Source: Candidatus Omnitrophota bacterium (GTDB lineage Bacteria > Omnitrophota > Gorgyraeia > Zapsychrales > Fredricksoniimonadaceae). From it: 62,491 bases of DNA. Location of the stretch: the NCBI GenBank assembly GCA_030650275.1, contig JAUSEK010000026.1, positions 1 to 62,491 on the forward strand, given 5' to 3'. Under the pieces are notes generated by a model. That model was not told where the DNA came from. It saw only the letters and a list, made by a program, of their open reading frames with translations, and ran no database searches. Made by a program: the position numbers and the translations under genes. Position 1 is the stretch's first letter. Each line of letters opens with the position of its first letter. Below, piece after piece: positions 2 through 34,620 of the stretch.

Positions 2-220
2 CCGCCGCGCGTCATTGCGTATACTGTTGGTGATCAAACCACCTATGTCATGCCTGACGATGATATCCGCACGCATCTTTCCCGCCGCGGCGACACTTCC
101 GATGAAATTGAAGGATTTATAGAACGCGTGAAACAGCATGAACGCCTGCACCGTGAGCGCAACGGCAGAGGTGATGCTCTTTCCGATCCCGCCCAGGAAG
201 AACGCGCGATTTTTGCCCTG
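2..220 (+). other. Repeated about 73 aa HExxH module, copy 1 (in giant ORF)
   Basis: PRVIAYTVGD..PDDDIR..IEGFI..QHERLHRERN.RGDALSDPAQEERAI; HERLH at 137-151; aligns with 3089-3304. Confidence 0.7.
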
Positions 221-18200: not shown

Positions 18201-21200
18201 AGCGCGTCGCCGACATATTGGGAAAAGGGGCGGCCAAGCGCAGTGTTCAAGCCGTAGTGGAGCAGATACGCTCCCCATCTTCCGACGATGACCTCATTCG
18301 GTTCGCTTCGAAACTCAGCGCCCTCCTGCTGGCCGCCGGCGTGAGCCTGTTCGGCCTCGGCCTCAACATCCCTGTTCACGTCCAGGAATGGTTCCACACC
18401 GCCGGGCTTGCAATGGTCCTGCTGGGTTTTGGCGTGGCGGTGCTGGGCATGGCCGTCGCGCAGTCCCCATCTACGGTGATGCGCATCCGCGGCGAGCTGG
18501 CTAAGCGGCAAGCCCAACATCCGGAGGAACTGATCAACGTGACGGCCATTGCTAAAGTGCTCCATCTTAGTCGTCAGGCAATTTATGACGCCTTCGAACG
18601 TGATCCCGCACTGGAGAAAGAATTCCGGCGTGCCCACCACGCCTCTGCGCAAGCCCAGATACGCCGCCGTCCAACCCGGTCTCGGGTTGGCTCTTCGGAC
18701 GCGCGGTTGCGGGCGTCCAACCGAAACCTGCTGCAGGCGCAACGAGCGCACAGTCGGTCCATGGGCGCACGGCTGCGGCCTGCTGTCGGGAAAATTGTTG
18801 CGGCGTATCAGGAGCGGCTCCTGACCCTGGATTGCCGATTAGACGCCACCACGGCCGCACTCGAGCATGGCCCCCCCGCGCTCGCCGCCATCCAGTCGGA
18901 GGTCGTGGTGGACTGGACGTTCTCTCGCGATCGCCGGCGCGATGATGCCGTGCGGCAATTCCTGGCCTCCAAAGGCGTTGTCACAGGCGGCGATTTGCTC
19001 GCCGTATATGGAAAACTGCGTCGTTACTACGCTGCGGATAGGCGGTTTCGGCTGATCCGGGCGGCCCTGCGGGAACGGATCGGCCCCGCGTTTCTGGATG
19101 ATTGGACGTTTAAATCAAATTTACAGTTCGATGCGAGGATCAAGAAGGTGCTCTTTACCGCCCAACCGCCCATCTTCATCATGCAGCAGTTGCTGGCGTG
19201 TACGGAGGCTGATCTCCAGGATCTGTCTCTGGGTCCCACGATCATCCGGGCGATCCAAGCCGCGCTGCGCCGGCACGGGCGAACGTTGCACCAGAACGCC
19301 GCCGCACCGTCCGGCGGTACGGCCCTGCTTGCCGCGGCAGACAATTCTCAGCGGATAGTGTGCCGCATTGGGATCATCGGAGGCACCGGTTGGGTGGGAT
19401 CACAATTCACCCGGTGGCTGTTGCGAAAAAGCAACAGGACCATTGATGTGCTGGTGCGGCCCGGCAGCCCAAGGATCGCTTCGATCCCTAATTCACCAGC
19501 CGTCCATCTCAGGACAGCGGCTTTGCTGGACCTTGATGAGATGGGATCGTGGGTCAGAGACAATGACGTCCTTTTCGATTTTGCGGCTTGGTCCAATCTT
19601 CCGCCGGAACCGTCCGATCAGGAGAAATGGCAGCTAAACGTCCTTGCGCACGCCTATCGCGTCGCCTTAGCCGGGCGTCACGGCACGCACATCATCTTTC
19701 CTTCCTCATCCACGGTGTACCGTCTGCATGCCGGCGATGCGGATCCACCGCTCAAAGAGGACGATCTCCGGCCGGATCCCGTTGTTGATCAGTTCATTCA
19801 GGTTACCGTCGAGCAATTCAGCGCTTATGCCACGGGGGTTTTGGGTGGTGCGCCGCAGCGTGACGAGGAGTTCATCAAGGACTTTTTGTATGACCATCCG
19901 GTGCCTGCGAATGTCAGCTTTTATCCTTTAAGCAAACTGATCGCAGAGCGGCTGGTCTTGGGCCATGAGCATGCGTTGGTCTTGAGATTCCCCGAGGCCT
20001 ATGGACCGGGGGAAACCGCGCACAAAGCCATCCCCAATATGTTGCGGGCGATCGTGGAAGGCGCAATGCAACTGGGGGTGCGGGACGACCAGAAGCAGTT
20101 TATATTTATTGAAGATGTTTTCAGGGTGTTGGAAGTAACCATGGATGCGCGCGTGGACCCGGCCAGGCGCGTCATGAATGTGCCCGGTCCCCAAGTCCTG
20201 GATACGTTTGCGGATGTGATCCCGGAGATCCGGCGTATCACCGGATCCACGATCCAATTTAACAGGGTCACCGGTTTGCAGAATCCTGCCATGGACGGCT
20301 CGAGACTGCAAGAACAACTGGGTGTAGTGCCAGGTGTTTTGTTGGAGGAGGGTTTAAGCCACACCTATGCCTGGTGGCAGTCTCGATCATCCCATGCCGC
20401 GCCCACCGACGCCGCGCCAGCCGTCAGTAAGATGGGCCTTTCGAAACTCAGCGTCTTGCTGGCAGCTGTGGGCGTGGGCCTGTTCGGCCTGGGCCTCAAC
20501 ATCCCTGTTCACGTCCAGGCATGGTTCCACACCGCCGGGCTTGTAATGATCCTGCTGGGGGCGGGCGTGGCGGTGCTGGGCATGGCCGGTTATAAGGGCA
20601 AGTCGTTCAAACGGTGGAAGAGAGAAAAAGATTTAAGGTATAAACACGGCGGCGCGGCTTTCCGGGCGTTGGTACCGACGGGCATGGCATTGCACTTTAC
20701 GGGGCTGGTCAGCGGGATCCGGCATCTTCGGATGTCGGCGCTGCCGCATATGGGATGGTGGCCGGCGCTGGGAATGACGACTGGGATCCTGCTGGCTTCA
20801 TTAGGATGGTCCATAGCCGCTTCGTGGGTCGTCGAAGCAGACCAGCACAGACAACAGCAGAAGCAATCCAGGCTCAGATTTTTTGGAGGGGTAGAACATT
20901 TACCGTACATGACGCCAATTGCGATAGGCACACTGATGGTAGTTGTCTTTCAGTACATGGCCGTGTCAATTTTAGTAGAACGGGGCGTTTCGGTTGTTTT
21001 GAGTACTGCGGAGGTCATGGGCAGTATTGTTGGTTTGTGGGGTATTTACAAAACTGCGCGGACCAGATCCGTTCTGGCCATGTTCATATTAGCCGGCCTT
21101 TACGCGTGGTGGTTCGGTGTTCCGTTCTCGGGGTTATTGGCGAGGTTGGGATGGGTCGGTATCGTCGCGGTCTTGGCCGGCGCGGCAGTGCCGCCGGACC

Positions 21201-24200
21201 GGAAACTTATTGAAAGCCTGACCGGTCAGGGGAATACGCTTAGGCGCAGCGCCCTCAAGTTCAAGGCAGACCGTCGATTTAAGGATGTCAGGACGGCGTC
21301 GCAACAGGCCGAGGGGATGTTCCTGGAAGCTGTGCGTCTTGGCCAGGATGACCCCAGCACCCTTATGGCCCGTCATGCCCTCGGTCAGCTTTATTATGAC
21401 CGAGGGGCTTATTATCGGGGCATTGAAGTTTTGGAAGAAGCCCTGGACCTGATCGGCCGGTTTCGAGACGCGAATCCACAGGCAAGGCGATTGATGAAAT
21501 TTTTAGCCGGCCAGGAATCTCTTATGCTGGTGACTCTCGCCGGCATGTTGCTGAAAAACTGGCGCCTCCAGGAGGCTTTTAAGATCCTTACTGCCGGTGA
21601 TCCGGCCGTTCTCAAACCGCAGTTCATGGAAAGTCCGGGCGCCCATCGCATCCTTGCGGATGCCTTGATCCAGGCCATGCGTCCTGCCGAGGCCATCAAC
21701 GTCCTGACCACCAACGGCATTCACCTGAAACCTCTGCTGGCGCGGTACCCCGGATTCTCCCAGCGGCTTCTTGATACTGCCCTGTCCCGGATCAGAGACC
21801 AAGGGACGGTCAAGCCCGTTGACGGGGACATTCAATTCTGTCCTCTTGAGATCATAGACATGGCCAGAGCGCTTGCTCAAAAGAATAACCTTAACGTGGG
21901 CGATCTCATCCGGGAAGGGATCAAGGGTCTTCGTGAGGCGGACCGCACATACGATCCTAAAAAAGGAGATTCCTTTAAGACGTTTGCGTTAAAAAGGGTC
22001 CGGGGTGCCATGAAGGATTTCATCCGTCGCGATCGTGCCGCGCGTCAGTATGGCGGCGGATCCGTGCCGGATCGCGCCTCCGGCGGGAAATGGCCCGGAA
22101 AATGGCAGAGGTCCTATGACCGGATCCAGGAGCAGGTGACCCGCTGGACGGGCAATAAGGCATTGGGCTGGTGGGCGGGACAGGCGTTGGCGCCCGGGTT
22201 CACGGAGTCCGTTGTTTTTGTCGGCGGCACAAGCCTGTTATTGAGTTTGGGGGCAAATGCCCTGAAAAGTTGGGCTTTTGGTCTGCCGCTGGCCATGGCC
22301 CCGCCGGTGTTGCTCACCCTTGTCTTTACTCCGTTCCTTCTTTTTGCGTGGCGCCGTTTCCACGGACGGCAGAATCTCTTCGCGGCAGACCTTGCCCTCA
22401 TCAATCATCTTTCGTTATATAGAGCCGGCTTGACCGTTTTTATTTTGGTCCTTGCACATGCGGGCAGCATGCTTGTCATCGGTTCATATCTGACGGCCCT
22501 TTGGATCTCGCATACACCGGTTAATGCCAGGCATAATCCTTTCCGCGGTGACCACGGCCATGATTTACACAATTTTCCGGTTGCACGGTGGCTGCGCGAG
22601 AGGCGGGGGCGCATGACATTGCGGGACAATGAGGGCAGGGTATTTGAGTTTCGTTATTCGGGGCCGTTCCCTGTCTTTTTTGACCACCAGCATTTGCTGA
22701 CCATCTTCCATGACGGCCGCCAGATCGGTTACGCGCATTTTATGGTCAAAGGCGGTCAGGCGCGGATGTCCACTACGTTCGGGGGACGTCCGGCCATCAT
22801 GGTGGATAAAGCCCATCGCCACCGGGGCCTCGGCAGGTCTTTGATCATGTTGTTGTCGCAGTTGGCGGGGGCGTCCGGAGCGAAACGTGTTCTGGCAAAG
22901 GATGTGCTGCCTGAAGAGACGGGTTTTTATGAAGCCCTCGGTTTTCAGAGGGTTCCCAGCGGCCATGCGTGGCGTTTATCATATGAGCTGTTGTCGTTTG
23001 AAACTTTTTCCATGAGTAAAATTTTATCGCCCGTCGCTGCACCGCTTGTGGCGGACAAGAGCGATCCACAGGGAACAACTTTTTTTGCCCCTGTATCGGT
23101 TTTGGCCCTGACTGCGCGGTCCTGGGCGCCACTTTTAGGATTGTCACCGGAGGCCGCGCTTCTTATGCAAGCGATCGGATTGGCGATAGGGCTGGTAGCG
23201 ATGGCGATATGGTTTTATGTCCGGGGAAGATCAGTGCTTGGCCTTGGAGTCATGCCTGTTGCCGTTAATGGCAATGGCACCGATGACCAGAGCAAAGCAA
23301 ATCATAAAAAGATAGGACCATTCAAGACCGATCATAAGACACCCCTTTCATTATTCAAAAGCATTATAGCAGCGGCAAATAGGATTAAAAAGCAAAACCA
23401 TCCCATTATAAATATTTCCCAAAAGATCGTGCGGGCGACCACCTGGCCGAAAACAAGCGTCACGGCCGCCAAATTGCCAAGGTTGAAGAACGCTTTGCTT
23501 AATTCTTTGCGTTGGGTGGGATTGAATCTGATGCTGAACAACATGACAGGCCTCCTGCGGATTATTTTGGGGAGATGGATTGGTACAACAAGCGTGGGGA
23601 ACGCTTGGATGAAACGATTCAATGTAACATCCGGATATGGTTTTGTCAATATTGCGGCCTCGGCCGTTGTGATCACCTTTGGCCTGTTCGCCGCTGCGTC
23701 TGCCCTGACCCCGAGTGCCAGTGTGGTTCATGACATCGGCTGGGGCGGTGTTCTGGCGGCTGGGATCGCTGCGGTGACCATCGCAGCAACGGTCAATGGT
23801 TGGCTAAGGCGGTCACCCGACAGGATGGTCAAGGTCGCGGGACCTCCACAGATCGCCTGGTCGAGACATATGGATATCGGACAGATGCAGCGGACCGTTT
23901 TCCGTGGTCCATCCGGGTCCCTTGAGCGTTTGCTTGGCGAGGTCCTGGCTGTTCACAAGCCGGTCGTTGATGCCGGATCCGGCGAGAGCGGTGCGCTGGA
24001 GGGTGTTTCTCAAGCAAGCGCCGGGGCCGTCGTGTTTCACAACCCGTCCCCTGATGAGCCGACATTGAAGGATTTCGCAAGGGCATTGTACGTGCTTGAG
24101 CCGGGCGGATGGTTCGTTGTTCACCTCAGCGGTGGTTTTTTTGACCAAGAGAAGAGATTGGTCCAGATGTTGTATCAATTCAGCCGCGCGCGGGCGGGTT

Positions 24201-26041
24201 TCAGAGAACTTGTCGTTCTTGGGTCGCCGCGTCAGGAGGACAGGGAAGTATTCTTGCTGGCGCGTTATGGCGGCGGCAATGTACGGTCATTGTCCGCCGG
24301 GAAAGGCAGATCAGTGCTTGGTCTTGGAGTTCAGCCGATTACTGTTGATGGCGAGGAACAGCATCAAGGTAGCAAAACAAGCCAAGAAGATCATGTAGGG
24401 AAGGATTGGATTCATAGTGCTCTCCTTGTTTCAGACACATTACCTAACAGCATTATAGCCGATGCAAAGAACATCGCAAGGCAAAATACTCCTAATATAA
24501 AGATCGGAGCATCGAATGTTCCCAATACAACTTGGCCTATGATCAATCCGGAAAAACACAAATTACCGGAATTGAACAGAGCTTTTCCCATTTCCTTCGA
24601 CTGGACTTCGTTGAACTTGAGGTTAATACTGAACGGCGGCATGACAGGTCTCCTGCGGTTATTTGGGGAGAGAGTAGTTGGTACAACAAGCGCGGGGAGC
24701 GCTTCGATTGAATTTAATGTAGCATCGGCCGGTGGCTTTGTCAATATTGTTCTGGTGTTGAGCCTTGGGCTTGCGGCCGCGCTGGCTCCCCACATTGCGT
24801 ATTTGCTTGGTGTTTCTACGGGGCTTGTCCCGCTTGGCGCAACTATACTGATCGTACTGGCGGGGACCATATTTAGTATATGGATCATCGCCGGCCGGAG
24901 TGCGTTATCACGATTAGTCTTGTTTGTCAGATACGGCCTAAACCTGATTGGTTTTTTCCTCTTTGTCGGTACGCAAAATTTTCTTGTTTACAGCGTTTTA
25001 CTTCTACGCGCGACAGGATGGGCATATTTGCCTGCTTCAGTTGGAGATGTGGTGAAGGCGGCGATAATTTGGGTGGCGTCAACGGTGATTCTGTTGGTAG
25101 CGGGTCAGTGGATGACCCGTTTTATTGAGGATATGGGGGATCGTGTTGGAACGTTTATGACATGGTTTCGGTCGGACGAAATCAAACAAGCGAAGGCTGA
25201 GGAGGTTTTTCAAGAGTTCAAACGCGATGGGATTGTTCGTGTCCGTTGTGATCCACGTCTGGCCGCTGGTTTGCGTCTGGTTTCTGGCGTTGAGCCGACA
25301 CAATTCTACGAGCAAGTCCAAGAGGGAGGTCGGGATTGGACGACCGGAACGATTCTCTTTACGCCGGCGTTGACGGTCTCCAAACAGGTGATACGTTATC
25401 TCATCGTGCGCCGTGCCCTTTCGGCATATTACGATGCAACACAGGGATCTTTGCATCAAAACAATCTTCTTGAGTTTCCATTCTTGGGGGGAGACCTTTT
25501 TTGGCCGTTATGGGGAGACTGGGAGTCTTTGAAGCGGGGATACCGCTATCCGGTGATGATTCCGTACATTTTACTTCATCAGGTTTTCGTAAGCTCAGTT
25601 GCTCTTGTGGGCTTTGTCTTATTGTGGATAAATCCGTCAATGGAGATACTTTTGACTGCAGGATCCGGTAGAAGTGAAGTAACGCGAAGGATTTTTTGGC
25701 ACGTTAAGCAGTTTATTTTTCGATATCCGGTGGAGGACGGTCGCATCAGGTCCTGGTTAAGGGGCAGGCATCTTTTCAGTTTTGCCTTCCCTCTGGCTCT
25801 GACATTTCCGCTGTGGGCAACACCGCAGCACCTTGCCGTGCTCACAGCCATGGGGTTGTTGATCGTGAAGGCGGTTTTGTTGACGGGTATTGTGGCAGGA
25901 GCGGTGTGGCTTTTTCACCGCGCCGGGCAAAGAAGATCAGTGCTTGGCCTTGGAGTCGCGCCTGTTGCCGTTAATGGCAATGGCACCGATGACCAGAGCA
26001 AAGCAAATCAGAAAAAGATAGAGAAAAAGGGGACACCATAA
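2..26041 (+). CDS. Giant multidomain membrane-associated protein, 5'-partial (at least 8,663 aa)
   Basis: ORF track gives 50..26041. The frame is also stop-free from base 2 (PPRVIAYTVGDQTTYV before the ATG at 50), so the true start lies upstream of the window. Many recognisable domains share the frame; stop TAA at 26039-26041. Confidence 0.92.
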   Translation, partial: PPRVIAYTVGDQTTYVMPDDDIRTHLSRRGDTSDEIEGFIERVKQHERLHRERNGRGDALSDPAQEERAIFALQDTDASWWKDPKRTNVVMSVPIFSLRREVNDPGIGKFTDIGPYYRDHLAPLGIDAVLLLPHYATIDGSPYAVASPYSLNEDFIDWMEVDEVREEAAMYPDVLQELTAPSSEQQAVHHGSLHHRERAMALRAAERFWTREVPADSTRGKMFDDFVQRNRPWLDDYAEFMAVHEILGGECLTWSSQALEQAKREQTYSALVRLHMYAQWVADEQLRAAIAMVHEHGGKVLFDVPMFRGKNSVDVWKHRDHFKKAENPDRYPGIVRGELNERWGDLALWNWTRAGQEGYRFMLDPVAHWLDMGFDGARIDALHMAYNNGYGQLVSGDEPGNAYVSALARVFQEREKLSVAEAYEGRSGDIARRGFITVLGDWKRLSDHDGTDVNPRDPRYDDTRETFIQNFNAYMNSGNFSGKNARFIALVLGHQWGDPMPIKRITGDNGTRRSIWHYRIPLQSDADYKNRARFDAGDYLAAIKAIRQGNIWQAGDAISRTLSAAADTFVKHVNGTVEIWASSRDWFQQQWGRDTLIALPGLLLAMGRFDEARENIRSFARLQRNGLVPNRIQDTQHPERTEYNTVDGSMWFIQAIQSYVEATGDWNFVNEMLPTMRAIVESYQHGTEYERFEWPHRIYRIYMDPQDGLIVSPAQATWMDADPHHRGPVTPRDGKAVEINALWYADLKFLAEVEEQAGERSRAEAHRDLAGRVKISFNAKFWNAPEGALLDVIEGTDPYQGAIRPNMLIAVSRGGDLISPERQADVFASATKDLLTPYGLRTLSPRDSHYRGRYETWRQPYPHEADFPNHKDFAYHQGTVWPWLIGPYVDTLARVRQQQGVGEDEIQDEIRRLLSPLIEFLMTSPVGNIPEVFDGDAPHRAGGTRAQAWSVSEVLRVLTEYGVLGPPRDAGLAVPGLIALISAAAVGSFAQEIRETHPAEHRQLVEYGNLLARFEVQLTDQESTGPPWHPRYVKYTLGNEIYGIPDDEIRRQMNVWQIPTETIESFIKFINEHEEWHRLRNIGGIALSDPDAEEHAILTIQVNSIVQKSISSSAVSPVKDATALITHAAALMGKVRALLDEIETLRQLNLTLKEWALIRKTTINADARILPEGHLPDDGLLMEHRWIQAAKARELPEHILNFADNHEAELNFTETMLGNPIEFLKRAQILIAESPVLSEQTVLNITALVESANIRVDGVNQRVGPVRSRLNTFQSKMAKELRKATMAWGRNDGPGLQDPHEIFSYLLITLVTAAAVGLWLAAKWFIRNRGTVFRQRSADFLELLAARVDPKRISRSRLQEQAWIDSLTGLHNQRFFEAIMEKYVAIAKRSKTKLSMIIFDVDGLKQVNDRYGHIAGNRVLRHIADKLRDVVRDSDETARWGGDEFTVLLLNADLNGAAIVAEKIRAAVETPISAIIGAEMLPGQEDRKIAVSLGVAEYVQGDTGQSFLRKADSALYQAKRAGRNGVVVAATEMDQPPVPFVRHIVLQGRDYTMMYAVANPQTAAAVANLVLTSEARIAKAGGLNEWEGHLIARGRRNPAWFIRYVQQVLKENPYSLVARDAQEKIQGVVFVSLVDAKSAEELPARHTLMRYAHQRQGVRSAMVDFWVTGAVSGMADELLLSTKHLAQHLNRMQPETCRIERLFAYSTPRSYKEADDVSRAVIGPLSIEFYLASGNDPVLHGYHVRLGGTIVRIISKAWSSRHSNLGYAVVVQHPLIEPSKPFDPTTLSSWIFPTLLAAGLLARVLGLDMDHAGQQAGLFYGWLVNSLAGAVIVVWQWLRTHGIRLLPDGRYVYIARLVRRLAREDSPSLVSMDRVMDVLVQDHELMALISENRLLDPMARLIERFTEGAHIFRFNKSQQEAFVKMFEDKYTRTVSFDRDGLWVVELYTRPVTWKQKWQAFDESPEPIGTFRFYYHQNGKGPSLQIGYPEIHSDYRGRHLYSETVRAIVDVNNISYGTRVWHVVDEIRTLEALYGKIVGGQDEEAYPDRPEADRKILLRADIVHELNRRFGGVWRDEEFLKATVLGRPLAGLDRLALKATEGGLWMTGINGERAPAWEGPQAPSWLEDFWQDHPVIANPAEQERLKQWETGFVERLHDRFLLPLEDIRTFLEDVRQAMTVGQPDTRMDTRGVDIFLAQQGPSALTRVDAAYLRKRFEEFVPLYNNMAAALNGHAPVFGRARLLEEVFFTHLFLGRRFDMSAAQAHWAVNLYRQNNIPQGIILGWLARHSLKTAMNEEQAWLAFERDPNLMLRLAGLLTEDAHSGLHLVFYRLIKAKALSNVQHLAVLSADDEDGRREAFSRGLYKVIRAAIGYSYLAGHRIQKRMLSPKERESLRQIYAALLNFIPLAVKVVPLRVSRPSKHRRSFPITPGSKANDEKKKARRVDERLRQTRGLNFNDLRNFTPQDVDKHIDGGRNGPRLGDPHEAFSFILYILVTAAAAAVMWFVRSVRAELAGDLKQLERSKRDSGKIRMTFWVSTLAVGGAEKVVLDLMNNIDTRRFDIITETRDSKERYDVEITGAQRRGMYFIIKPLLYSKFRQYLSNRSGILRLLRLMLLLARSLRQAPIEYFIHKNTRPRIYHIHEYGIRQSGKKAIAKLAGVPVVMTTYHTFPKSNGPIRSLDDMITWANHFITRISFHYIDDVIVALTEAEKQEHIRVNRVPAEKIVVIPNGIDQRLFMEQADVEKVLDVRRKLHLPEDAFVVGAVGRLSLEKGHRHLVEAARIVLEEIPQAYFLIIGEGTERGNLTRQIEAAGLRGRVVMPGVQTHDSLPLYLAAMDVFTMPSLIEGQPLAKIEAMASGKAVIASKVGGMPETLDGAGILVPPADPQTLAREIIRLAKDPELRARLGRAARERAQLFSVEKMVEDYARLYQRLAANRGISLQPASASIDSGRNGMPKHEERHIPYGIHSRGWRNNNDVGHNLSGEWYRAPHGRRGVVEISIPVMGKFWTSMWARGDWTAFGRGYFGEMLTFLENFIEDVRRQNPAARLVDFGTGNLEVPRIIRDALTDFTVYAFDVADPSWLYRPDADHFFKTDIEAVGLLDGQVHAVTAVYVLEYARRMDNVLREIHRVLKPGGLAAIIAIHPRSKLVEFAAQNVNKGETWLKEMKPGLRGPDHLEIHKAGILARLNIIKWRLERAAEIPDTEEGMNAWLRRHGFVDIKLEHLHDQDSLLAWGVRVRKPVSNQSPAAPSASANLSGLDLHSLHDITHVFWLALGFVIAIVAAAVKRIRKGRQVHYYPTVDSWQEHERAVNFHSHAAHKTTRRALRIMDSVFAAFLAIGIIDVFLGGLGIAPLLRLVFSYLFANILVAVLVWLHEFVHVLFVPKEDRTLKNFWGNMSGSNWLHLAFRRPYTVPGRLPYVQIMSDLSDARRRWVNYSALIFTFLSSSAIVFVSWILFTRGTWPMPAGLAAIVAFRSAWAGDFRNPSKHTFHWGASDPGPTGPADEDIFGDLAHTLEKYFNSMDFPDSMAEDARHEFFGRLLQNIVEDRRLKHGILMSWVLWSLRSYEHGVNPLERVFDILGTPMPPQKMIRSAIREFERVLDRATHAVSMPARDYQMVGDRSARSAGRAVVKKQTPKQAPGHRGPTEGNMSGLLPLAAGVVGVGMTVVIAGWILASIYKPQVLKFVAGRAPPGPVRRIVLSVLGRLLPEQFIPIQNHLRRLVKGDFLLLKWLRRSTPILLDLNTTPQTVGPSPDHGTTDPGITVIPTDAGNPNAMGSYEVLYGTRFLGTHEHVALPDKRIVLYQYDELPKELRNVAIGHRRQEFVRWTENKMSQAVGYAHFTTRSAGFALDSVDLAGRRVLDVGMGEGTLAILAAKKGAKSVVGVDVYPRIIDVAQKNAELNRVTSQVRFYIQDAKQSIPGEDGSFDVIIMNVPRYQFYELVGALMLRYPMVQTFILGGSAQSMDRSRVLDISDKVVRLFRRRGFVFTAKFVDTINRYYDGRMWNTYIIHSPSVEAPNALRQYMGSMKTEFTTVVIVLSMFASAPGLPAGVAAAAVLAGLGLLVLGMTVVTGRGKKGPRGLSSKKVKLKAVATKQRYYLMRFILTTVDKGALDRLITHFSAVQKRHVSDVGTAIRQIVEKTRSQWKPDVPVPPEWGDIGRKFFDWAKDQEFVTVRTQQIRERAQELLSGRMRELFEVRAGLVSWRNLGKMNYDPNFLTRALEIIRTNLPLLDDGLIPSPGMAHDDLRGTKAMIMVTGRRVSWEGSLITAGIFGLIGLAAIGGSLSMQGIGLVAISAAGVYVIQGLVIMFLPLAVSRAGSLWARTRWGVPGPPDYPLIKPLRDMRYNYYTPFLEVTDRHQIINARLQAGFLFLPPLLQWIFYLPIGLLRAVHERPAHCTPLARLHEAHNELIAYPLEILFVFTGAIGYAFAATPEALLAGILIGLSIQIILSWWGHGREQAFREAVPDIILKADRPGLISRRVVLRTLVAGIAGTAVIWKMGDLQDPLEEQTAKQRGYEDWFADRDEWLAEGDMVNAALANRRGELLRAAQMVPVMAQMSPRVFYTWIASVESLEFFRGRAEPDGKIARGELQAWIEGYRNLSRQPNTPAPDMKTVEEVQQQLRLLAAQVAINPRDRRNPIPDRRPEARSVLDRRTMFAVMLGLPKLPPAPARLILDVGAGDGRTTQALALSNPNARIIMIDPSTNSFEAAKQRLKSFPNVEFVGRHVEQWDSSGLAGSADHIYFLFPFFLYRPYKHPISADTARRIAEKIFGLLMPGSGEFVMVTEFPEIISVFIKAFRAAQLQVDSEKVPTGDLVQHVPVAIHSDIYAYISKATEARFKTVLIIHARKPVEGISSPAKRGLSKLTVFLLAAGAGLTQLFVAAPWIGRVHAVGFAMVLLGFGVAMLGGNLAKLTRVLKRWREVSRFTAQERQDFTFFTRETIDTLAAGRPQKERDRFFKRIALKPLTKIHILLRYDSHLWRDLFFVAIISVLGAFEGWILGRALLHFGNTGVAIITWLGGIVFGTFALVRSRLPARSSANIIACIIPGGTTIFVNRRLTAGRRDRFVAAVPHETAHLLHEYELAAKDTSSVIQGVVELLWGEKTGRDTVIGDPGWYDEGRRLATIQDPAQRERELLQFSRREAHADDWAQSVVSGPGHPEPESMRPYGVALASYIYETIGRLRLEGAPFPERFGDINLYLRANLNLETRDIASVEQIAEAIARTSTLSPATVDTVLDNFTLSPEIRQGVAQLALKGGIVSHLRHFEVRRSRSAPPAVVRRSPEDPGHERHRSWGRQPRPRWLGGDEDVESDPLNGDWAIPALLRHHPKKPIVPSASDASPEPSRRAAAPSVLPASDVLVGLRTAMLRPGDRVLHVGSGRSRLPFLDASLGASDVFVTDARPGSLQVVAHPGVTFISRPVDVTRLNEDLRQERFDQITMWNVLSEAYFQGDRAHALMELIRALRPHGRIWVTDDHVRLSNGEARYVHDLLPEVADAMGYRIKVLAGPKDLPGAYADVLAYELWPDHRIDKLKGLSKTSVFLLAAGAGLTQLFVAAPWIGRVHDAGLAMVLLGFGAAALGAGLAVSIKEKLAMAREHLPWTTGAVAGALVIIPFLRWNFSDPDNLLVGNLMVWAQVLLTGFLSGFGVEARGTFVNFMTMIFLPFVELTLARLWLRVAVNNVRATFFGGLFFGLSAAFFGYAIGHPLLDLARMALGSPPQDSISNIITFWIRGGQFLKVAPTVPQFLEVVAAVFGVWYLSERSARWIDGKIEPRLRRRVERRRLAVEKAVRIADQAARRAERQAERAVESIRKEKPKKKIVAPAVTKTAAPASQEIIKPAKAAAPTIATPIETAEPASVEEPFVLSALSISDLESPDTAEPFILTSLDIIEPEFDFEFNVALGSAEEPYTGQSNLDFETPMPESAPAPSAADESVAEDLDSWLGDDELGREIAARLGQMPVEEVESLLDLVWSDPSLSYAEKRQMLADLLPKENILIEQTLRFDLGRDPLGLSLIVWLETMTVPEIQQRFKDIHGRKALIKKVLQRSMNPQMAELIADAARRSGQRPLIVIERVADILGKGAAKRSVQAVVEQIRSPSSDDDLIRFASKLSALLLAAGVSLFGLGLNIPVHVQEWFHTAGLAMVLLGFGVAVLGMAVAQSPSTVMRIRGELAKRQAQHPEELINVTAIAKVLHLSRQAIYDAFERDPALEKEFRRAHHASAQAQIRRRPTRSRVGSSDARLRASNRNLLQAQRAHSRSMGARLRPAVGKIVAAYQERLLTLDCRLDATTAALEHGPPALAAIQSEVVVDWTFSRDRRRDDAVRQFLASKGVVTGGDLLAVYGKLRRYYAADRRFRLIRAALRERIGPAFLDDWTFKSNLQFDARIKKVLFTAQPPIFIMQQLLACTEADLQDLSLGPTIIRAIQAALRRHGRTLHQNAAAPSGGTALLAAADNSQRIVCRIGIIGGTGWVGSQFTRWLLRKSNRTIDVLVRPGSPRIASIPNSPAVHLRTAALLDLDEMGSWVRDNDVLFDFAAWSNLPPEPSDQEKWQLNVLAHAYRVALAGRHGTHIIFPSSSTVYRLHAGDADPPLKEDDLRPDPVVDQFIQVTVEQFSAYATGVLGGAPQRDEEFIKDFLYDHPVPANVSFYPLSKLIAERLVLGHEHALVLRFPEAYGPGETAHKAIPNMLRAIVEGAMQLGVRDDQKQFIFIEDVFRVLEVTMDARVDPARRVMNVPGPQVLDTFADVIPEIRRITGSTIQFNRVTGLQNPAMDGSRLQEQLGVVPGVLLEEGLSHTYAWWQSRSSHAAPTDAAPAVSKMGLSKLSVLLAAVGVGLFGLGLNIPVHVQAWFHTAGLVMILLGAGVAVLGMAGYKGKSFKRWKREKDLRYKHGGAAFRALVPTGMALHFTGLVSGIRHLRMSALPHMGWWPALGMTTGILLASLGWSIAASWVVEADQHRQQQKQSRLRFFGGVEHLPYMTPIAIGTLMVVVFQYMAVSILVERGVSVVLSTAEVMGSIVGLWGIYKTARTRSVLAMFILAGLYAWWFGVPFSGLLARLGWVGIVAVLAGAAVPPDRKLIESLTGQGNTLRRSALKFKADRRFKDVRTASQQAEGMFLEAVRLGQDDPSTLMARHALGQLYYDRGAYYRGIEVLEEALDLIGRFRDANPQARRLMKFLAGQESLMLVTLAGMLLKNWRLQEAFKILTAGDPAVLKPQFMESPGAHRILADALIQAMRPAEAINVLTTNGIHLKPLLARYPGFSQRLLDTALSRIRDQGTVKPVDGDIQFCPLEIIDMARALAQKNNLNVGDLIREGIKGLREADRTYDPKKGDSFKTFALKRVRGAMKDFIRRDRAARQYGGGSVPDRASGGKWPGKWQRSYDRIQEQVTRWTGNKALGWWAGQALAPGFTESVVFVGGTSLLLSLGANALKSWAFGLPLAMAPPVLLTLVFTPFLLFAWRRFHGRQNLFAADLALINHLSLYRAGLTVFILVLAHAGSMLVIGSYLTALWISHTPVNARHNPFRGDHGHDLHNFPVARWLRERRGRMTLRDNEGRVFEFRYSGPFPVFFDHQHLLTIFHDGRQIGYAHFMVKGGQARMSTTFGGRPAIMVDKAHRHRGLGRSLIMLLSQLAGASGAKRVLAKDVLPEETGFYEALGFQRVPSGHAWRLSYELLSFETFSMSKILSPVAAPLVADKSDPQGTTFFAPVSVLALTARSWAPLLGLSPEAALLMQAIGLAIGLVAMAIWFYVRGRSVLGLGVMPVAVNGNGTDDQSKANHKKIGPFKTDHKTPLSLFKSIIAAANRIKKQNHPIINISQKIVRATTWPKTSVTAAKLPRLKNALLNSLRWVGLNLMLNNMTGLLRIILGRWIGTTSVGNAWMKRFNVTSGYGFVNIAASAVVITFGLFAAASALTPSASVVHDIGWGGVLAAGIAAVTIAATVNGWLRRSPDRMVKVAGPPQIAWSRHMDIGQMQRTVFRGPSGSLERLLGEVLAVHKPVVDAGSGESGALEGVSQASAGAVVFHNPSPDEPTLKDFARALYVLEPGGWFVVHLSGGFFDQEKRLVQMLYQFSRARAGFRELVVLGSPRQEDREVFLLARYGGGNVRSLSAGKGRSVLGLGVQPITVDGEEQHQGSKTSQEDHVGKDWIHSALLVSDTLPNSIIADAKNIARQNTPNIKIGASNVPNTTWPMINPEKHKLPELNRAFPISFDWTSLNLRLILNGGMTGLLRLFGERVVGTTSAGSASIEFNVASAGGFVNIVLVLSLGLAAALAPHIAYLLGVSTGLVPLGATILIVLAGTIFSIWIIAGRSALSRLVLFVRYGLNLIGFFLFVGTQNFLVYSVLLLRATGWAYLPASVGDVVKAAIIWVASTVILLVAGQWMTRFIEDMGDRVGTFMTWFRSDEIKQAKAEEVFQEFKRDGIVRVRCDPRLAAGLRLVSGVEPTQFYEQVQEGGRDWTTGTILFTPALTVSKQVIRYLIVRRALSAYYDATQGSLHQNNLLEFPFLGGDLFWPLWGDWESLKRGYRYPVMIPYILLHQVFVSSVALVGFVLLWINPSMEILLTAGSGRSEVTRRIFWHVKQFIFRYPVEDGRIRSWLRGRHLFSFAFPLALTFPLWATPQHLAVLTAMGLLIVKAVLLTGIVAGAVWLFHRAGQRRSVLGLGVAPVAVNGNGTDDQSKANQKKIEKKGTP
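260..1570 (+). other. 4-alpha-glucanotransferase (GH77/MalQ-like) domain in giant ORF
   Basis: VPIFSLR..GIGKFTD, SPYAVASPYSLN, YAQWVADEQL, LFDVPMF, WGDLALWNW; RID, AE and HD catalytic-type motifs present. Confidence 0.8.
1736..2880 (+). other. Amylo-alpha-1,6-glucosidase (glycogen debranching enzyme C-terminal) domain in giant ORF
   Basis: WGRDTLIALPGL, YNTVDGSMWF, TWMDA, TPRDGKAVEINALWY, IRPN, LLTPYGLRTLSP, YHQGTVWPWLIG, IPEVFDGD..AQAWSV. Confidence 0.88.
3089..3304 (+). other. Repeated HExxH module, copy 2 (in giant ORF)
   Basis: PRYVKYTLGN..PDDEIR..IESFI..EHEEWHRLRN.GGIALSDPDAEEHAI; HEEWH at 3218-3232. Confidence 0.7.
3866..3960 (+). repeat. GRN(D/G)..DPHE.FS..LVTAAA transmembrane linker, copy a
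   Basis: Shares AGACCCGCACGAG and ATTAGTGACAGCCGCGGC with 7409-7512. Confidence 0.75.
4085..4585 (+). other. GGDEF diguanylate cyclase domain in giant ORF
   Basis: DSLTGLHN, FDVDGLKQVNDRYGHIAGN, RDSD-ETARW-GGDEF (4322-4336), ADSALYQAKRAGRN. Confidence 0.92.
4640..5330 (+). other. Possible GNAT-like domain in giant ORF
   Basis: Alpha/beta pattern ending DPVLHGYHVRLGGTIVRII..SNLGYAVVVQH; weak family recall. Confidence 0.35.
5880..6080 (+). other. GNAT-like acetyltransferase motif in giant ORF
   Basis: IGYPEIHSDYRGRHLYSETV resembles the acetyl-CoA-binding motif A. Confidence 0.45.
7409..7512 (+). repeat. GRNG..DPHE.FS..LVTAAA transmembrane linker, copy b
   Basis: Homologous to 3866-3960; its first 20 nt match 8840-8859 at 19/20. 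Confidence 0.75.
7586..8800 (+). other. GT-B family 4 glycosyltransferase domain in giant ORF
   Basis: GGAEKVV, VIPNGID, VGAVGRLSLEKG, DVFTMPSLIEGQPLAKIEAMASG (E-X7-E), VGGMPE. Confidence 0.92.
9137..9720 (+). other. Class I SAM methyltransferase fold #1 in giant ORF
   Basis: LVDFGTGNLE, AFDVA, YVLEY..VLREIHRVLKPGG. Confidence 0.8.
9960..10440 (+). other. Intramembrane HExxH (site-2/M50-like) segment in giant ORF
   Basis: Hydrophobic helices with LVWLHEFVHVLF (HEFVH at 10118-10132). Confidence 0.5.
11555..11990 (+). other. Class I SAM methyltransferase fold #2 (PrmA-like) in giant ORF
   Basis: GRRVLDVGMGEGTLAILAAKKGAKSVVGVDV..AQKNAELN; FDVIIMNVP. Confidence 0.85.
14012..14545 (+). other. 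Class I SAM methyltransferase fold #3 (TrmB-like) in giant ORF
   Basis: ILDVGAGDG, IIMIDP, DHIYFLFP, GEFVMVTE. Confidence 0.75.
14576..14716 (+). repeat. TM-hairpin cassette copy 1 (GLSKLTVFLLAAGAG...AMVLLGFGVAMLG)
   Basis: High nucleotide similarity to 16589-16730, 18306-18452 and 20434-20586. Confidence 0.9.
14960..15700 (+). other. TM-anchored zincin-like segment in giant ORF
   Basis: Two TM helices, then FVAAVPHETAHLLHE (HETAH at 15209-15223). Confidence 0.5.
16088..16560 (+). other. Class I SAM methyltransferase fold #4 in giant ORF
   Basis: PGDRVLHVGSG, FVTD, FDQITMWNVL, LIRALRPHGRIWVTD. Confidence 0.75.
16589..16730 (+). repeat. TM-hairpin cassette copy 2
   Basis: GLSKTSVFLLAAGAGLTQLFVAAPWIGRVHDAGLAMVLLGFG; middle nearly identical to copy 1. 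Confidence 0.9.
18306..18452 (+). repeat. TM-hairpin cassette copy 3
   Basis: SKLSALLLAAGVSLFGLGLNIPVHVQEWFHTAGLAMVLLGFGVAVLGM. Confidence 0.9.
18533..18601 (+). other. Helix-turn-helix motif in giant ORF
   Basis: INVTAIAKVLHLSRQAIYDAF. Confidence 0.65.
18911..19292 (+). other. Tandem RNA polymerase alpha-CTD-like repeats in giant ORF
   Basis: Two DWTF-starting units. The second (ARIKKVL..IFIMQQLLACTEADLQDLSLGPTIIRAIQAALRRHGRTL) follows the alpha-CTD pattern [47 protein letters not shown]. Confidence 0.6.
19363..20390 (+). other. NAD-dependent epimerase/dehydratase (extended SDR) domain in giant ORF
   Basis: IGIIGGTGWVG, FPSSSTVY, YPLSK (YxxxK), LRFPEAYGPG, FIFIEDV. Confidence 0.88.
20434..20586 (+). 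repeat. TM-hairpin cassette copy 4
   Basis: GLSKLSVLLAAVGVGLFGLGLNIPVHVQAWFHTAGLVMILLGAGVAVLGM; middle matches copy 3 at 68/71 nt. Confidence 0.9.
21300..21800 (+). other. TPR-like helical repeats in giant ORF
   Basis: AEGMFLEAVRL..ARHALGQLYYDRGAYYRGIEVLEEALDL. Confidence 0.6.
21848..22033 (+). other. Sigma-70 region 2-like domain (FliA-type pattern) in giant ORF
   Basis: DLIREGIKGLREADRTYDPKKGDSFKTFALKRVRGAMKDFIR. Confidence 0.8.
22600..22990 (+). other. GNAT acetyltransferase domain in giant ORF
   Basis: IMVDKAHRHRGLGRSL..FYEALGF. Confidence 0.8.
23231..23335 (-). CDS. Nested antisense small membrane protein B1, 34 aa (MIGLEWSYLFMICFALVIGAIAINGNRHDSKAKH)
   Basis: SD-like AAGGGGTG upstream; ATG overlaps the TGA of ORF A1 (ATGA); one TM helix plus basic tail; homologue at 24311-24415. 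Confidence 0.7.
   Translation of the reverse strand: MIGLEWSYLFMICFALVIGAIAINGNRHDSKAKH
23332..23544 (-). CDS. Nested antisense 2-TM small protein A1, 70 aa (MLFSIRFNPTQRKELSKAFFNLGNL...)
   Basis: AGGAGG 6 nt before the ATG at 23544; conservative substitutions relative to homologue 24412-24642. Confidence 0.75.
   Translation of the reverse strand: MLFSIRFNPTQRKELSKAFFNLGNLAAVTLVFGQVVARTIFWEIFIMGWFCFLILFAAAIMLLNNERGVL
23621..23649 (-). promoter_or_regulatory. Sigma-70 promoter of nested antisense unit 1
   Basis: TTGACA (23649-23644), 17 nt spacer, TGn-TACATT (23626-23621). Confidence 0.75.
23948..24290 (+). other. Degenerate SAM methyltransferase fold #5 in giant ORF
   Basis: PVVDAGSGE..FARALYVLEPGGWFVV. 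Confidence 0.55.
24311..24415 (-). CDS. Nested antisense small membrane protein B2, 34 aa (MNPILPYMIFLACFATLMLFLAINSNRLNSKTKH)
   Basis: AAGGAG 6 nt before ATG; ATGA overlap with the A2 stop; same length as B1. Confidence 0.7.
   Translation of the reverse strand: MNPILPYMIFLACFATLMLFLAINSNRLNSKTKH
24412..24642 (-). CDS. Nested antisense 2-TM small protein A2, 76 aa (MPPFSINLKFNEVQSKEMGKALFNSGNL...)
   Basis: AGGAG SD before the ATG at 24642; homologous to A1. Confidence 0.75.
   Translation of the reverse strand: MPPFSINLKFNEVQSKEMGKALFNSGNLCFSGLIIGQVVLGTFDAPIFILGVFCLAMFFASAIMLLGNVSETRRAL
24716..24744 (-). promoter_or_regulatory. Sigma-70 promoter of nested antisense unit 2
   Basis: TTGACA (24744-24739), 17 nt spacer, TGn-TACATT (24721-24716). 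Confidence 0.75.
25937..26024 (-). pseudogene. Truncated third copy of small ORF B (LYLFLICFALVIGAIAINGNRRDSKAKH), no in-frame start
   Basis: 25932-26021 matches 23226-23315 at 87/90 nt; upstream part replaced by a palindrome. Confidence 0.7.
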
Positions 26042-26054
26042 AGTGTCCCCTTTT
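26025..26054. terminator. 12-bp perfect hairpin AAAAGGGGACAC-cataaa-GTGTCCCCTTTT; likely bidirectional terminator or REP-like element
   Basis: Perfect inverted repeat with A/T tails; the giant ORF stop codon lies in its loop. Confidence 0.7.
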
Positions 26055-26104
26055 GCCCGGAATAGGACATTTCTACTTTGCCTTTACAGTGAAGCCTCTG
26101 TACC

Positions 26105-26133
26105 TTGACACTCGCCCGTCGGGGTGTTATACT
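26105..26133 (+). promoter_or_regulatory. Sigma-70 promoter
   Basis: TTGACA-17-TGn-TATACT, 12 nt before ATG 26146. Confidence 0.8.
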
Positions 26134-26145
26134 TTGGCCACAACT

Positions 26146-27821: not shown

Positions 27822-27827
27822 ATTATA

Positions 27828-33410: not shown

Positions 33411-34550
33411 ATGGACCCCGTTTATCTTGACCATGCCGCGACAACACCCTGCGACCCGCGGGTCGTGGAGGCCCTGCGTCCTTATTTTTATGAGGCCTTC
33501 GGCAATACGTTAAGTCCGCACGCCTTTGGCCGGCGTAGCCGCAAGGCCGTTGAGGATGCCCGTGAAATATTGGCCTCTTTTTTGGGCGCCCAGCCGACGG
33601 AGATCGTTTTTACGTCATCCGCCACAGAATCCAATAATCACGTCATTTTAGGCGTTGCCCGTGCTTTGAAGTCCGAAGGCAGGCATCTCGTTGTTTCCGC
33701 CATTGAGCATCATTGTGTCCTGGAACCGGCCCGCCGTCTGATGCAGGAGGGATGCGAGGCCACGTTCGTGTCCCCGGACAAGGACGGTATCATTTCTCCC
33801 ACGGCCATTGAGCAAGCCCTGCGTCCGGACACCATTTTGATCGCCGTGGCCCACGCCAATAATGAGATCGGCACCATCCAACCCATCGCGGATATCGGAC
33901 GCATCGCCCGTAAAAGAGGTATTTATTTCTTAGTGGACGCGGCGCAGACCATCGGACATATCCCCGTATCTGTTACCGGCATTCCTTGCGATCTTCTTTC
34001 TTTTTCCGCCCACAAATTCTATGGTCCCCAGGGCGTCGGCGCTTTGTATATGCGCAAAGGCATTGACTGTCCGCCTTTGCTGTTAGGCGGGGACCATGAA
34101 CGCGGCAGCCGCGCGGGAACGCTGAATGTCCCGGGCATCGTCGGGTTAGGGGAAGCGGTCCGTTTGTGTGGCCCGCTTATGTCCGATGAAATGGCCGCGC
34201 AAACCGCTTTGCGCGACCGGATCATCAACGCTGTCCTTAAAGAGGTCCCCGGCACAACCCTTAACGGTCATCGCACCTTGCGCCTGCCCAACAATGCCCA
34301 TTTCTCCTTTGAAGGCGTCCTTGGCGAGGACCTGGTCGCGGCCCTGGACATGGCAGGCATTGCCGTTTCCGTGGGTTCGGCGTGCACGTCAGGCCAATTG
34401 ACCCCGTCGCACGTGCTCAAAGCCATCGGCCTTTCCGATGCCCAGGCCCTCGGGGCATTGCGCATCAGCGTCGGCCGCTGGACCACAGCGAAGGAAGTTG
34501 ACTATTTTTTGGAACAATTAAAATTAAAAATAAAACAATTGAGGGGTTGA
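33411..34550 (+). CDS. iscS: Cysteine desulfurase
   Basis: YLDHAATTP, SFSAHKFYGPQG, GSACTSG. Confidence 0.95.
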   Translation: MDPVYLDHAATTPCDPRVVEALRPYFYEAFGNTLSPHAFGRRSRKAVEDAREILASFLGAQPTEIVFTSSATESNNHVILGVARALKSEGRHLVVSAIEHHCVLEPARRLMQEGCEATFVSPDKDGIISPTAIEQALRPDTILIAVAHANNEIGTIQPIADIGRIARKRGIYFLVDAAQTIGHIPVSVTGIPCDLLSFSAHKFYGPQGVGALYMRKGIDCPPLLLGGDHERGSRAGTLNVPGIVGLGEAVRLCGPLMSDEMAAQTALRDRIINAVLKEVPGTTLNGHRTLRLPNNAHFSFEGVLGEDLVAALDMAGIAVSVGSACTSGQLTPSHVLKAIGLSDAQALGALRISVGRWTTAKEVDYFLEQLKLKIKQLRG

Positions 34551-34620
34551 ATTATAGGGACACAATACTTAATTCAACCATGAATAAACACAGGAATTAA
34601 GTTTTGTGTCCCCATAATTC
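34549..34620. repeat. 27-bp inverted repeat pair (REPIN-like, GGGACAC core)
   Basis: Arms 34549-34575 and 34594-34620 match at 25/27. Confidence 0.8.

What the first reader, a model, noticed from the sequence alone, without database searches (positions are those of the whole stretch)
25932..26054. Giant ORF ends inside a truncated third cassette, with its stop in the loop of a GGGGACAC palindrome
25932-26021 matches 23226-23315 at 87/90 nt, closer than copy 2, implying a recent duplication. Where copies 1 and 2 continue into ORF A and the promoter, this copy is replaced by AAAAGGGGACAC-cataaa-GTGTCCCCTTTT, whose loop supplies the TAA. The antisense ORF B copy has lost its in-frame start. The C-terminus may have been cut by a repeat insertion or recombination; a related GGGACAC core occurs at 34549-34620. 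It could also be a deliberate terminal module.
Basis: partly seen in the sequence, partly recalled or inferred. Interest (0 to 1): 0.65.

Follow-up and report, generated by a model that had tools for sequence, protein, structure and literature searches.

The report
Giant gene capped by portable terminator
The 26-kb gene ends inside the remnant of a small backward-facing gene cassette, and its stop codon sits in the loop of a hairpin repeat that recurs at other gene ends in this genome and looks like a two-way transcription terminator; this is a local case of a known kind of mobile hairpin reshaping a gene's end.

Summary
25932-26021 matches 23226-23315 at 87/90, with sharp edges on both sides. 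The perfect palindrome AAAAGGGGACAC-CATAAA-GTGTCCCCTTTT lies at 26025-26054, with the giant ORF's TAA (26039-26041) in its loop. The antisense ORF B copy lacks its first 7 codons and has no start codon.

The palindrome is not unique. Nine short copies lie at gene 3' ends in this 1.63-Mb Omnitrophota genome. Two longer palindrome subfamilies share the same GGGGACAC foot, and one of them flanks a RAYT/TIRYT-like Y1 transposase gene.

Three unrelated ORFs, including the giant one, end with the repeat-encoded tail K/E-K-G-T-P-stop. For the other two, the same-genus orthologues have a different native end and no hairpin, while both flanks are conserved. The hairpin therefore overwrote their last codons.

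The same-genus, syntenic giant ORF also ends in a terminal cassette, but there ORF B and ORF A are intact and there is no palindrome.

Best reading: an old terminal cassette lost ORF A and its promoter when a portable stop-plus-terminator hairpin was acquired. The 97 % patch reflects recent recombination with cassette 1. This is a new member of a known kind and of moderate interest.


The parts
2..26041 (+). Giant ORF (>8679 codons, 5' end cut by the contig start). It contains GH77, GDE_C, GGDEF, GT4, several methyltransferase domains, an epimerase, sigma70 region 2 and a GNAT domain, separated by TM connectors.
   Evidence: the coding-type GC1>GC2 pattern and 0 stops continue through the last module, 24900-25931
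25932..26021 (.). Third copy of the 90-nt repeat. In the + frame it encodes the last 30 of the final 36 codons (RSVLGLGVAPVAVNGNGTDDQSKANQKKI). On the - strand it is the remnant of ORF B.
   Evidence: 87/90 to 23226-23315, 63 % to 24306-24395
25937..26020 (-). ORF B remnant: codons 8-34 plus the TGA. It has no start codon, no ORF A and no promoter.
   Evidence: tblastn ORF B1 vs 26020-25940 93 %
26025..26054 (.). Perfect 12-bp palindrome with a 6-nt loop: a GGGGACAC-foot hairpin repeat that looks like a bidirectional intrinsic terminator.
   Evidence: family members; weak Rfam hit only to the terminator hairpin of CsrC
26039..26041 (+). TAA stop of the giant ORF, in the hairpin loop. The last 5 codons, K-K-G-T-P, are encoded by the A-run and the 5' arm.
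23226..23654 (-). Cassette 1 (429 nt): ORF B 23231-23335, ORF A 23332-23676, promoter 23649-23621. It is the partner of the 97 % patch.
24306..24749 (-). Cassette 2 (444 nt): ORF B 24311-24415, ORF A ending at 24412, promoter 24744-24716.
26105..26133 (+). Promoter-like site TTGACA-17-TATACT (TG-extended) of the next gene (ATG 26146). Homology with the sibling genome resumes here, at about 26091.
34549..34620 (.). Long palindrome of the GAATTATR-GGGACAC-AATACTTAATTC subfamily (about 17 copies). It shares the foot with the short hairpin and has no T-run.

Best explanation
The giant gene ends in what is left of a terminal antisense mini-operon cassette (promoter, ORF A, ORF B on the minus strand). 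In this lineage the promoter, ORF A and the first 7 codons of ORF B were lost. A 30-bp hairpin repeat (A-run, GGGGACAC foot, 6-nt loop, T-run) now sits at the break.

The hairpin belongs to a dispersed family of REP/TIR-type palindromes linked to a RAYT/TIRYT-like Y1 transposase. It acts as a portable 'full stop'. Read in one frame, the A-run and 5' arm encode K-K-G-T-P and the loop supplies TAA. As RNA it forms a stable stem followed by U's on both strands, so it should end transcription of the giant gene and shield the promoter 50 nt downstream.

The remaining 90 nt of ORF B have no function on the minus strand. On the plus strand they merely provide 30 of the last 36 codons. Their 97 % identity to cassette 1 comes from recent recombination or gene conversion between cassette copies, which are mosaic in this genus.

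Shown: the anatomy, the repeat family, the overwriting of two other gene ends, and the intact terminal cassette in the sibling. Inferred: terminator activity, mobilisation by the Y1 enzyme, and the order and mechanism of the loss.
For: - Anatomy and fold.
- Family: 9 short copies, 8 of them within 35 nt of the stop of an ORF of 150 aa or more. The pattern is absent from the reversed control. Palindromes with the same foot occur in 16 of 61 relatives, with differing inner stems.
- Three ORFs end K/E-KGTP* in the loop.
- The antiporter orthologue in G001 ends ...QLYVERLK* with no hairpin, while the flanks CAGCTGTACGTG and TTTATGTTATAATTTCCGCTCTAT are conserved.
- The C2 gene ends ...IPEKGTP*, whereas G001 has ...VPVQKQERP*, and the next gene's start is conserved.
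- Sibling G001:C34 is syntenic: its downstream genes give tblastx matches of 78-92 % identity, mostly 80-90 %. Its giant ORF ends 45 nt past an intact terminal ORF A + ORF B, and there is no palindrome.
- A contig of a relative in run X4 continues past 26017 with cassette sequence (GAAAGACCATTCAGGACCAATCATAATACA) where the window has the hairpin.
- The Y1 transposase gene C19:63432-64169 scores over the Pfam cut-off and is flanked by GGGGACAC-foot hairpins. GGGGACAC fits the published TIRYT TIR consensus GGGGWSAS (PMC3733652).
- Mosaic identity among cassettes.
Against: - No RNA data are available, so termination is inferred. The + strand U-run is only 4 U before a G.
- Only one sibling genome (82 % complete) fixes the polarity, so loss of the hairpin in G001 is formally possible. 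More distant orthologues of the two small genes also lack it.
- The giant ORFs of the two species share only the cassette regions, so orthology of the terminal cassettes rests on synteny.
- In metagenome contig L003 the same hairpin follows a complete cassette. This shows that the hairpin and ORF A can coexist. The first 64 nt of L003 are not corroborated by unitigs.
- RAYT-like genes are in 47 of 61 relatives, so co-occurrence with the hairpins does not discriminate.
- The Y1 protein scores below the NCBIfam RAYT cut-off (56.5 vs 80).
Confidence: 0.6

Rival explanations
1. Fresh segmental duplication. A 90-nt piece of cassette 1 was recently copied to the gene's end, next to a terminator that was already there. 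No terminal cassette ever existed at this spot.
For: 97 % identity with razor-sharp edges and unalignable DNA flanks. The left edge coincides with the cassette boundary shared by all copies.
Against: The connector to the left of copy 3 is an old paralogue of the connector to the left of copy 1 (56 % aa). The sibling genome and L003 also have a terminal cassette. An X4 relative has a copy-3-type left flank followed by a full cassette. No mechanism is evident for copying exactly codons 8-34.
Confidence: 0.15
2. Recombination toggle. The two 90-nt direct repeats, 2,706 nt (902 codons) apart, mediate in-frame pop-out or re-insertion of the last two modules together with both working mini-operons. 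The population would then hold a long form and a short form of the giant gene, both ending ...KKIEKKGTP* in the hairpin.
For: In X1 the unitig that is exactly the inter-repeat segment (23275-25989) has depth 12.4, against 15.0-17.4 for six of the seven other long unitigs (the seventh, an 809-nt piece at 28982-29790, reads 21.3). The spacing is a multiple of 3. Cassette mosaicism shows frequent exchange.
Against: A 22 % dip could come from coverage bias or from micro-diversity lowering the k-mer depth. No junction-specific k-mers can exist, so unitigs cannot show the short form. The depth of the shared 51-nt unitig (26.6) fits neither model well.
Confidence: 0.15
3. Assembly artefact. The contig is mis-joined at the 90-nt repeat or at the multi-copy palindrome, and the true gene continues as in cassette 1.
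For: Both joints pass through sequences repeated elsewhere: a 50-nt identical core, and a hairpin core identical to C23:64225. k = 31 unitigs cannot resolve either.
Against: Copy-3-specific bases are linked on each side. GC at 25958/9 is linked to the unique left flank, and G at 26010 is linked to GATAGAGAAAAAGGGG in a 0-mismatch unitig. The only alternative pairing is the circular or deleted form. The stop lies inside the hairpin whatever follows. Synteny of the downstream genes with G001 supports the right-hand join.
Confidence: 0.07
4. Functional C-terminal tail. The RSVLGLGV...KKGTP peptide is a selected terminal signal of the giant protein, for example for sorting or anchoring.
For: The same + frame motif RSVLGLGV precedes all three copies and L003.
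Against: That motif is the antisense reading of the conserved ORF B C-terminus (NSKxKH*). The sibling's + frame tail is unrelated (ARRVAVAAAHHNKGPDRSDY...), while its ORF B is conserved. KKGTP is encoded by the repeat and shared with an antiporter and a small lipoprotein-like ORF.
Confidence: 0.03

Closest known systems
TIR/REP-type hairpin repeats associated with RAYT/TIRYT Y1 (HUH) transposases ('REPtrons'/'TIRtrons'; Di Nocera et al. 2013, PMC3733652; REPIN/RAYT, PMC3116915, PMC3337134)
   Same: A dispersed short palindrome family. A Y1 transposase gene is flanked by hairpins with the same foot. The foot GGGGACAC fits the published TIRYT TIR consensus GGGGWSAS. Presence or absence varies at orthologous sites.
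   Different: No GTAG/CGTC tag. Low copy number (about 35 loci in three subfamilies). The short subfamily carries A/T runs that make it terminator-shaped. It overlaps coding 3' ends and donates the stop codon. Mobilisation was not shown.
Rho-independent bidirectional terminators, including REPs close to stop codons that affect translation (summarised in PMC12306157; bidirectional terminators are cited from my own knowledge of Ju et al. 2019)
   Same: A GC-rich perfect stem flanked by an A-run and a T-run, located at gene 3' ends, sometimes between convergent genes, and directly upstream of the next promoter.
   Different: The identical stem is reused at 9 or more sites. In 3 of the 9, the stop codon lies inside the loop, so a terminating ribosome would cover the 3' arm.
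Palindromic elements translated inside genes (Rickettsia RPEs; intragenic REPs, PMC3733652)
   Same: Part of a hairpin repeat is read in frame and becomes protein sequence.
   Different: Here only 5 codons are read, and the element ends the ORF rather than adding an internal loop.
Embedded antisense mini-operon cassettes of Omnitrophota giant genes
   Same: Copy 3 is homologous to the ORF B part of these cassettes and lies antisense in the giant ORF.
   Different: It lacks the promoter, ORF A and the ORF B start. It is a relic, not a working unit.

Membership tests
Intrinsic (Rho-independent) terminator | Stable GC-rich stem-loop | tested here: met
   -21.5 kcal/mol (+ strand) and -24.8 kcal/mol (- strand), z about -5; picked up by the terminator scan on the - strand
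Intrinsic (Rho-independent) terminator | U-run immediately 3' of the stem | tested here: inconclusive
   + strand: UUUU then G. - strand: UUUUUCUCUAUCUUUUU
Intrinsic (Rho-independent) terminator | Position at the 3' end of transcription units | tested here: met
   8 of 9 family copies lie within 35 nt of the stop of an ORF of 150 aa or more
Intrinsic (Rho-independent) terminator | RNA 3' ends map to the U-run | not testable with these tools
   Only DNA runs hold this sequence
REP/TIR repeats of RAYT/TIRYT transposases | Multi-copy dispersed palindromes with a conserved foot | tested here: met
   Short (9), long (about 17) and CCACCGTAACC (about 9) subfamilies all share GGGGACAC/GTGTCCCC. The same foot occurs in 16 of 61 relatives.
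REP/TIR repeats of RAYT/TIRYT transposases | Y1/HUH transposase gene flanked by the repeats | tested here: met
   C19:63432-64169 has a perfect hairpin at 63414-63465 and a right arm at 64141-64166 that overlaps its stop codon
REP/TIR repeats of RAYT/TIRYT transposases | Transposase passes the curated RAYT model | tested here: not met
   NF047646 scores 56.5 bits against a cut-off of 80. Pfam Y1_Tnp is over its cut-off. This fits TIRYT-like better than canonical RAYT.
REP/TIR repeats of RAYT/TIRYT transposases | GTAG or CGTC tag of classical REPs | tested here: not met
   The foot is GGGGACAC, which fits the TIRYT TIR consensus GGGGWSAS instead
REP/TIR repeats of RAYT/TIRYT transposases | Mobility (gain or loss at orthologous sites) | tested here: met
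   Present in G000 and absent in G001 at the antiporter and C2 genes, with conserved flanks. Absent at the syntenic giant-gene end.
DNA uptake sequences paired in terminators (DUS/USS) | Strong genome-wide over-representation of the core | tested here: not met
   GGGGACAC has 132 sites, ranks about 4000 among 8-mers, and is not among the high O/E words
ORF A/ORF B antisense cassette | Own promoter, ORF A, and ORF B with a start codon | tested here: not met
   Copy 3 keeps only ORF B codons 8-34 and the stop

The most novel reading that the evidence does not exclude
Omnitrophota giant genes may be 'punctuated' by two kinds of movable DNA. One kind is the stop-free, multiple-of-three antisense cassettes (429 and 444 nt here) that can sit inside the ORF. 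The other is the Y1-transposase-linked hairpins that supply stop plus terminator. Recombination between cassette copies (here 90-nt direct repeats 902 codons apart) and gain or loss of hairpins would then set, and perhaps toggle within a population, where a giant protein ends and which modules it carries. This would explain why sibling species with mostly 80-90 % identical flanking genes (tblastx) share nothing but the cassettes in their giant ORFs.
Probability: 0.2. Interest if true: 0.7.

Novelty: new member of a known kind. Interest (0 to 1): 0.42.

Why it matters
It shows how the 3' boundary of a 26-kb bacterial gene was set. The boundary did not come from an ordinary stop and a bespoke terminator. 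It came from a reusable hairpin repeat that overwrites the last codons of genes and gives unrelated proteins the same five-residue tail.

It also shows that the terminal antisense cassette is a recurrent feature of these giant genes, that it can decay, and that cassette copies recombine.

For annotation, the 'KKGTP' tails and the ORF B fragment should be read as repeat-derived. For giant-gene biology, the result points to testable routes of module gain, loss and truncation.

Tried and rejected
- Homologues of the last module (24890-26038): none in 60 relatives and no Pfam family.
- ORF A homologues P0004 and P0005 have no recorded contigs. The genome contigs pattern scan found nothing.
- DUS/USS-like uptake signal: rejected, because the core is not over-represented.
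- Co-occurrence of RAYT-like genes with the hairpins across 61 relatives: uninformative, because such genes are in 47 of 61.
- Rfam: only a sub-threshold hit to the CsrC terminator hairpin.
- Extending L003 beyond the hairpin with reads failed. The runs that hold it have 4.5x unitigs that do not cover nt 29-63 and that diverge after nt 463.
- A frameshift rescue of ORF B from the loop ATG (26039) was considered. The -1 frame runs into TGA and the ORF B frame would need +1, so it was dropped (sequence reading).
- Hairpins near cassettes in G005, G021 and G036: none. The cassettes there are internal to long ORFs.

Full report
OBSERVATION

The window is contig C24 of a 1.63-Mb, 26-contig genome with 52.5 % GC. 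Earlier notes call it Omnitrophota, and its reads come from groundwater metagenomes. One ORF runs from the contig's first bases to 26041, more than 8679 codons. It carries GH77, GDE_C, GGDEF, GT4, several methyltransferase domains, an epimerase, sigma-70 region 2 and a GNAT domain, separated by TM connectors.

25932-26021 matches 23226-23315 at 87/90, and matches 24306-24395 at 63 %. Nucleotide identity stops abruptly on both sides. The palindrome AAAAGGGGACAC/CATAAA/GTGTCCCCTTTT occupies 26025-26054, and the ORF's TAA is at 26039-41 in its loop.

On the minus strand, copies 1 and 2 are the 3' parts of ORF B (34 aa). ORF B overlaps the stop of ORF A by ATGA, and each pair has a TTGACA-17-TACATT promoter. 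Copy 3 keeps ORF B codons 8-34 and the TGA. It has no start codon in frame back to the previous stop, and the internal ATG is CTG.

X1 unitigs cover 25981-26052 and 26025-29011 without a mismatch. X1 is probably the source sample, and k = 31 cannot phase through the repeats.

THE PALINDROME IS A REPEAT FAMILY

The genome holds nine short copies of A-run/GGGGACAC/6-nt loop/GTGTCCCC/T-run. A tenth has a longer top. The reversed control pattern gives zero.

Eight of the nine lie within 35 nt of the stop of an ORF of 150 aa or more, and several have TAA fused to the A-run.

The RNA folds at -21.5 kcal/mol (+ strand) and -24.8 kcal/mol (- strand), with z about -5. U's follow on both strands, fewer on the + strand. 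The only Rfam echo is the terminator hairpin of CsrC. By form and position it is a bidirectional intrinsic terminator. No RNA data exist to show this.

Two longer palindrome subfamilies share the same foot:
- GAATTATR-GGGACAC-AATACTTAATTC..., about 17 loci, including window 34549-34620.
- GGGGACAC-CCACCGTAACC..., about 9 loci.

The second subfamily flanks a Y1/HUH transposase gene, C19:63432-64169. That gene scores over the cut-off for Pfam Y1_Tnp, and its best NCBIfam match is REP_Tyr_transpos, below the cut-off.

GGGGACAC fits the consensus GGGGWSAS that Di Nocera et al. reported for the inverted repeats of TIRYT genes (PMC3733652).

Palindromes with the same foot and different inner stems occur in 16 of 61 relatives, across 11 genera. 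The core 8-mer is not over-represented genome-wide, so it is not a DUS/USS-type signal.

THE HAIRPIN OVERWRITES GENE ENDS

Three ORFs of 155 aa or more run into a short hairpin and stop at the loop TAA, all with the repeat-encoded tail:
- the giant ORF (...IEKKGTP*);
- a 574-aa cation antiporter with an EIIA-like end (...LYVKKGTP*);
- a 155-aa ORF (...IPEKGTP*).

The same-genus orthologue of the antiporter ends ...QLYVERLK* and has no hairpin. The DNA on both sides (CAGCTGTACGTG; TTTATGTTATAATTTCCGCTCTAT) is conserved. About 33 nt, including four codons and the stop, were therefore replaced by the 38-nt hairpin unit.

The orthologue of the 155-aa ORF ends ...VPVQKQERP*, one base before the next gene's ATG. 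In this genome the hairpin plus AAGGAGG stands between the two genes. More distant orthologues also lack the hairpin. The hairpin is thus a gain in this lineage and a proven donor of stop codons.

THE GIANT GENE'S END IN RELATIVES

G001:C34 (same genus) is syntenic. Its coiled-coil gene, brnT/antitoxin pair, comM and following genes give tblastx matches of 78-92 % identity, mostly 80-90 %. DNA homology with the window resumes at about 26091, the next gene's promoter.

The G001 giant ORF (more than 4075 codons) shares only the cassette regions with the window's ORF. It too has three cassettes in its last 4 kb, and its ORF B copies all end GDSTRAKH*. Identity between those copies is patchy, 78-94 %.

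Its terminal cassette is complete: ORF B has 35 aa with an ATG, and ORF A has 70 aa. The giant ORF stops 45 nt beyond the ORF A start. There is no palindrome, and an AAA_14/DUF4143 gene follows.

A contig of a relative in run X4 has a copy-3-like left flank and the ORF B part. It then continues with cassette sequence where the window has the hairpin.

Metagenome contig L003 shows a third state. A complete cassette is followed by the same hairpin, and the opposite-strand ORF ends ...FVKKKGTP*. L003 is a mosaic of the window's cassettes: its connector is 70 % identical to copy 1, its ORF B 81-82 % to copies 1 and 3, and its ORF A 79 % to copy 2. Its first 64 nt and its joint at nt 463 are not corroborated by unitigs, so I give it less weight.

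ORF A relatives lie antisense inside frames that stay open across the whole ~3-kb locus (about 1,050 codons or more) in many Omnitrophota. The cassette is therefore a real, recurrent unit.

READING

The end of this giant gene is an old terminal cassette. Its promoter, ORF A and ORF B start were lost when a portable hairpin came to lie at the break. The hairpin now supplies five codons, the stop and, by inference, the terminator that insulates the promoter 50 nt downstream.

The + frame peptide across ORF B is not conserved in the sibling, while ORF B is. The tail is therefore a passenger.

The 97 % patch is best explained by recent exchange with cassette 1. A fresh duplication is possible but fits the conserved three-cassette layout and the paralogous left connector less well.

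One unexplained signal remains. The X1 unitig that equals the 2,706-nt segment between the repeats (902 codons) has depth 12.4, against 15.0-17.4 for six of the seven other long unitigs; the seventh, an 809-nt piece at 28982-29790, reads 21.3. This would fit a minority form with the segment recombined out, but unitigs cannot test that.

COMPARISON AND NOVELTY

The hairpin is a new member of the known REP/TIR-Y1 transposase kind. Its terminator shape and its habit of overwriting 3' codons resemble REPs near stop codons (PMC12306157) and intragenic palindromes such as RPEs (PMC3733652).

The giant-gene papers do not mention antisense units, terminators or palindromes.

On its own the finding is moderately interesting. 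Its value is as a clean example of how such repeats and cassette recombination shape the ends of giant genes.

Noticed in passing
window 2-26041 vs L039 (G001:C34) 3-12230: The giant ORFs of two same-genus genomes sit at the same syntenic place. Their flanking genes give tblastx matches of 78-92 % identity, mostly 80-90 %. At E<1e-5 the two ORFs share only the antisense-cassette regions, so module content has turned over completely.
   Followed up: partly
window 23275-25989: The X1 Logan unitig that is exactly the segment between the two 90-nt repeats has depth 12.4. Six of the seven other long unitigs of the locus read 15.0-17.4 (an 809-nt one reads 21.3). The repeats are 2,706 nt (902 codons) apart, so a recombined-out form would stay in frame.
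   Followed up: partly
L003 563-565 (minus-strand frame): An in-frame TGA stands where the window has GGA (Gly in APLLGLSPE), just before the connector. The frame then stays open for 183 more codons, through the whole cassette, to the hairpin's TAA.
   Followed up: no
window 23226-23654 and 24306-24749: The two complete cassette units measure 429 and 444 nt. Both are multiples of three, as expected for units tolerated inside an ORF.
   Followed up: no
L039 12088-12195: A 54-nt perfect tandem duplication lies inside the terminal ORF A of the sibling genome. It duplicates ...KVLFNLGNIAAASLIF... on the minus strand.
   Followed up: no
genome C2:20088-20118: A short hairpin lies between two co-directional genes that are 1 nt apart in the sibling. 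It brings AAGGAGG ahead of the next ATG, so it may attenuate an operon as well as end a gene.
   Followed up: partly
genome C19:64141-64169: The Y1 transposase ORF itself ends (...IKVTVGVP*) inside the right arm of its flanking GGGGACAC-foot hairpin.
   Followed up: no
window 27552-28133 (-): A BrnT-like toxin (27828-28091; Pfam 29 bits, below the cut-off) and a CopG-type antitoxin (27552-27821) lie behind a TTGACA-17-TATACT promoter at 28133-28105. The pair converges on the coiled-coil gene.
   Followed up: partly
whole genome: GTAGGGGC/TAGGGGCG are the most over-represented frequent 8-mers (O/E 1.7-2.0, 71-93 copies). They may mark a classical GTAG-tagged REP family.
   Followed up: no
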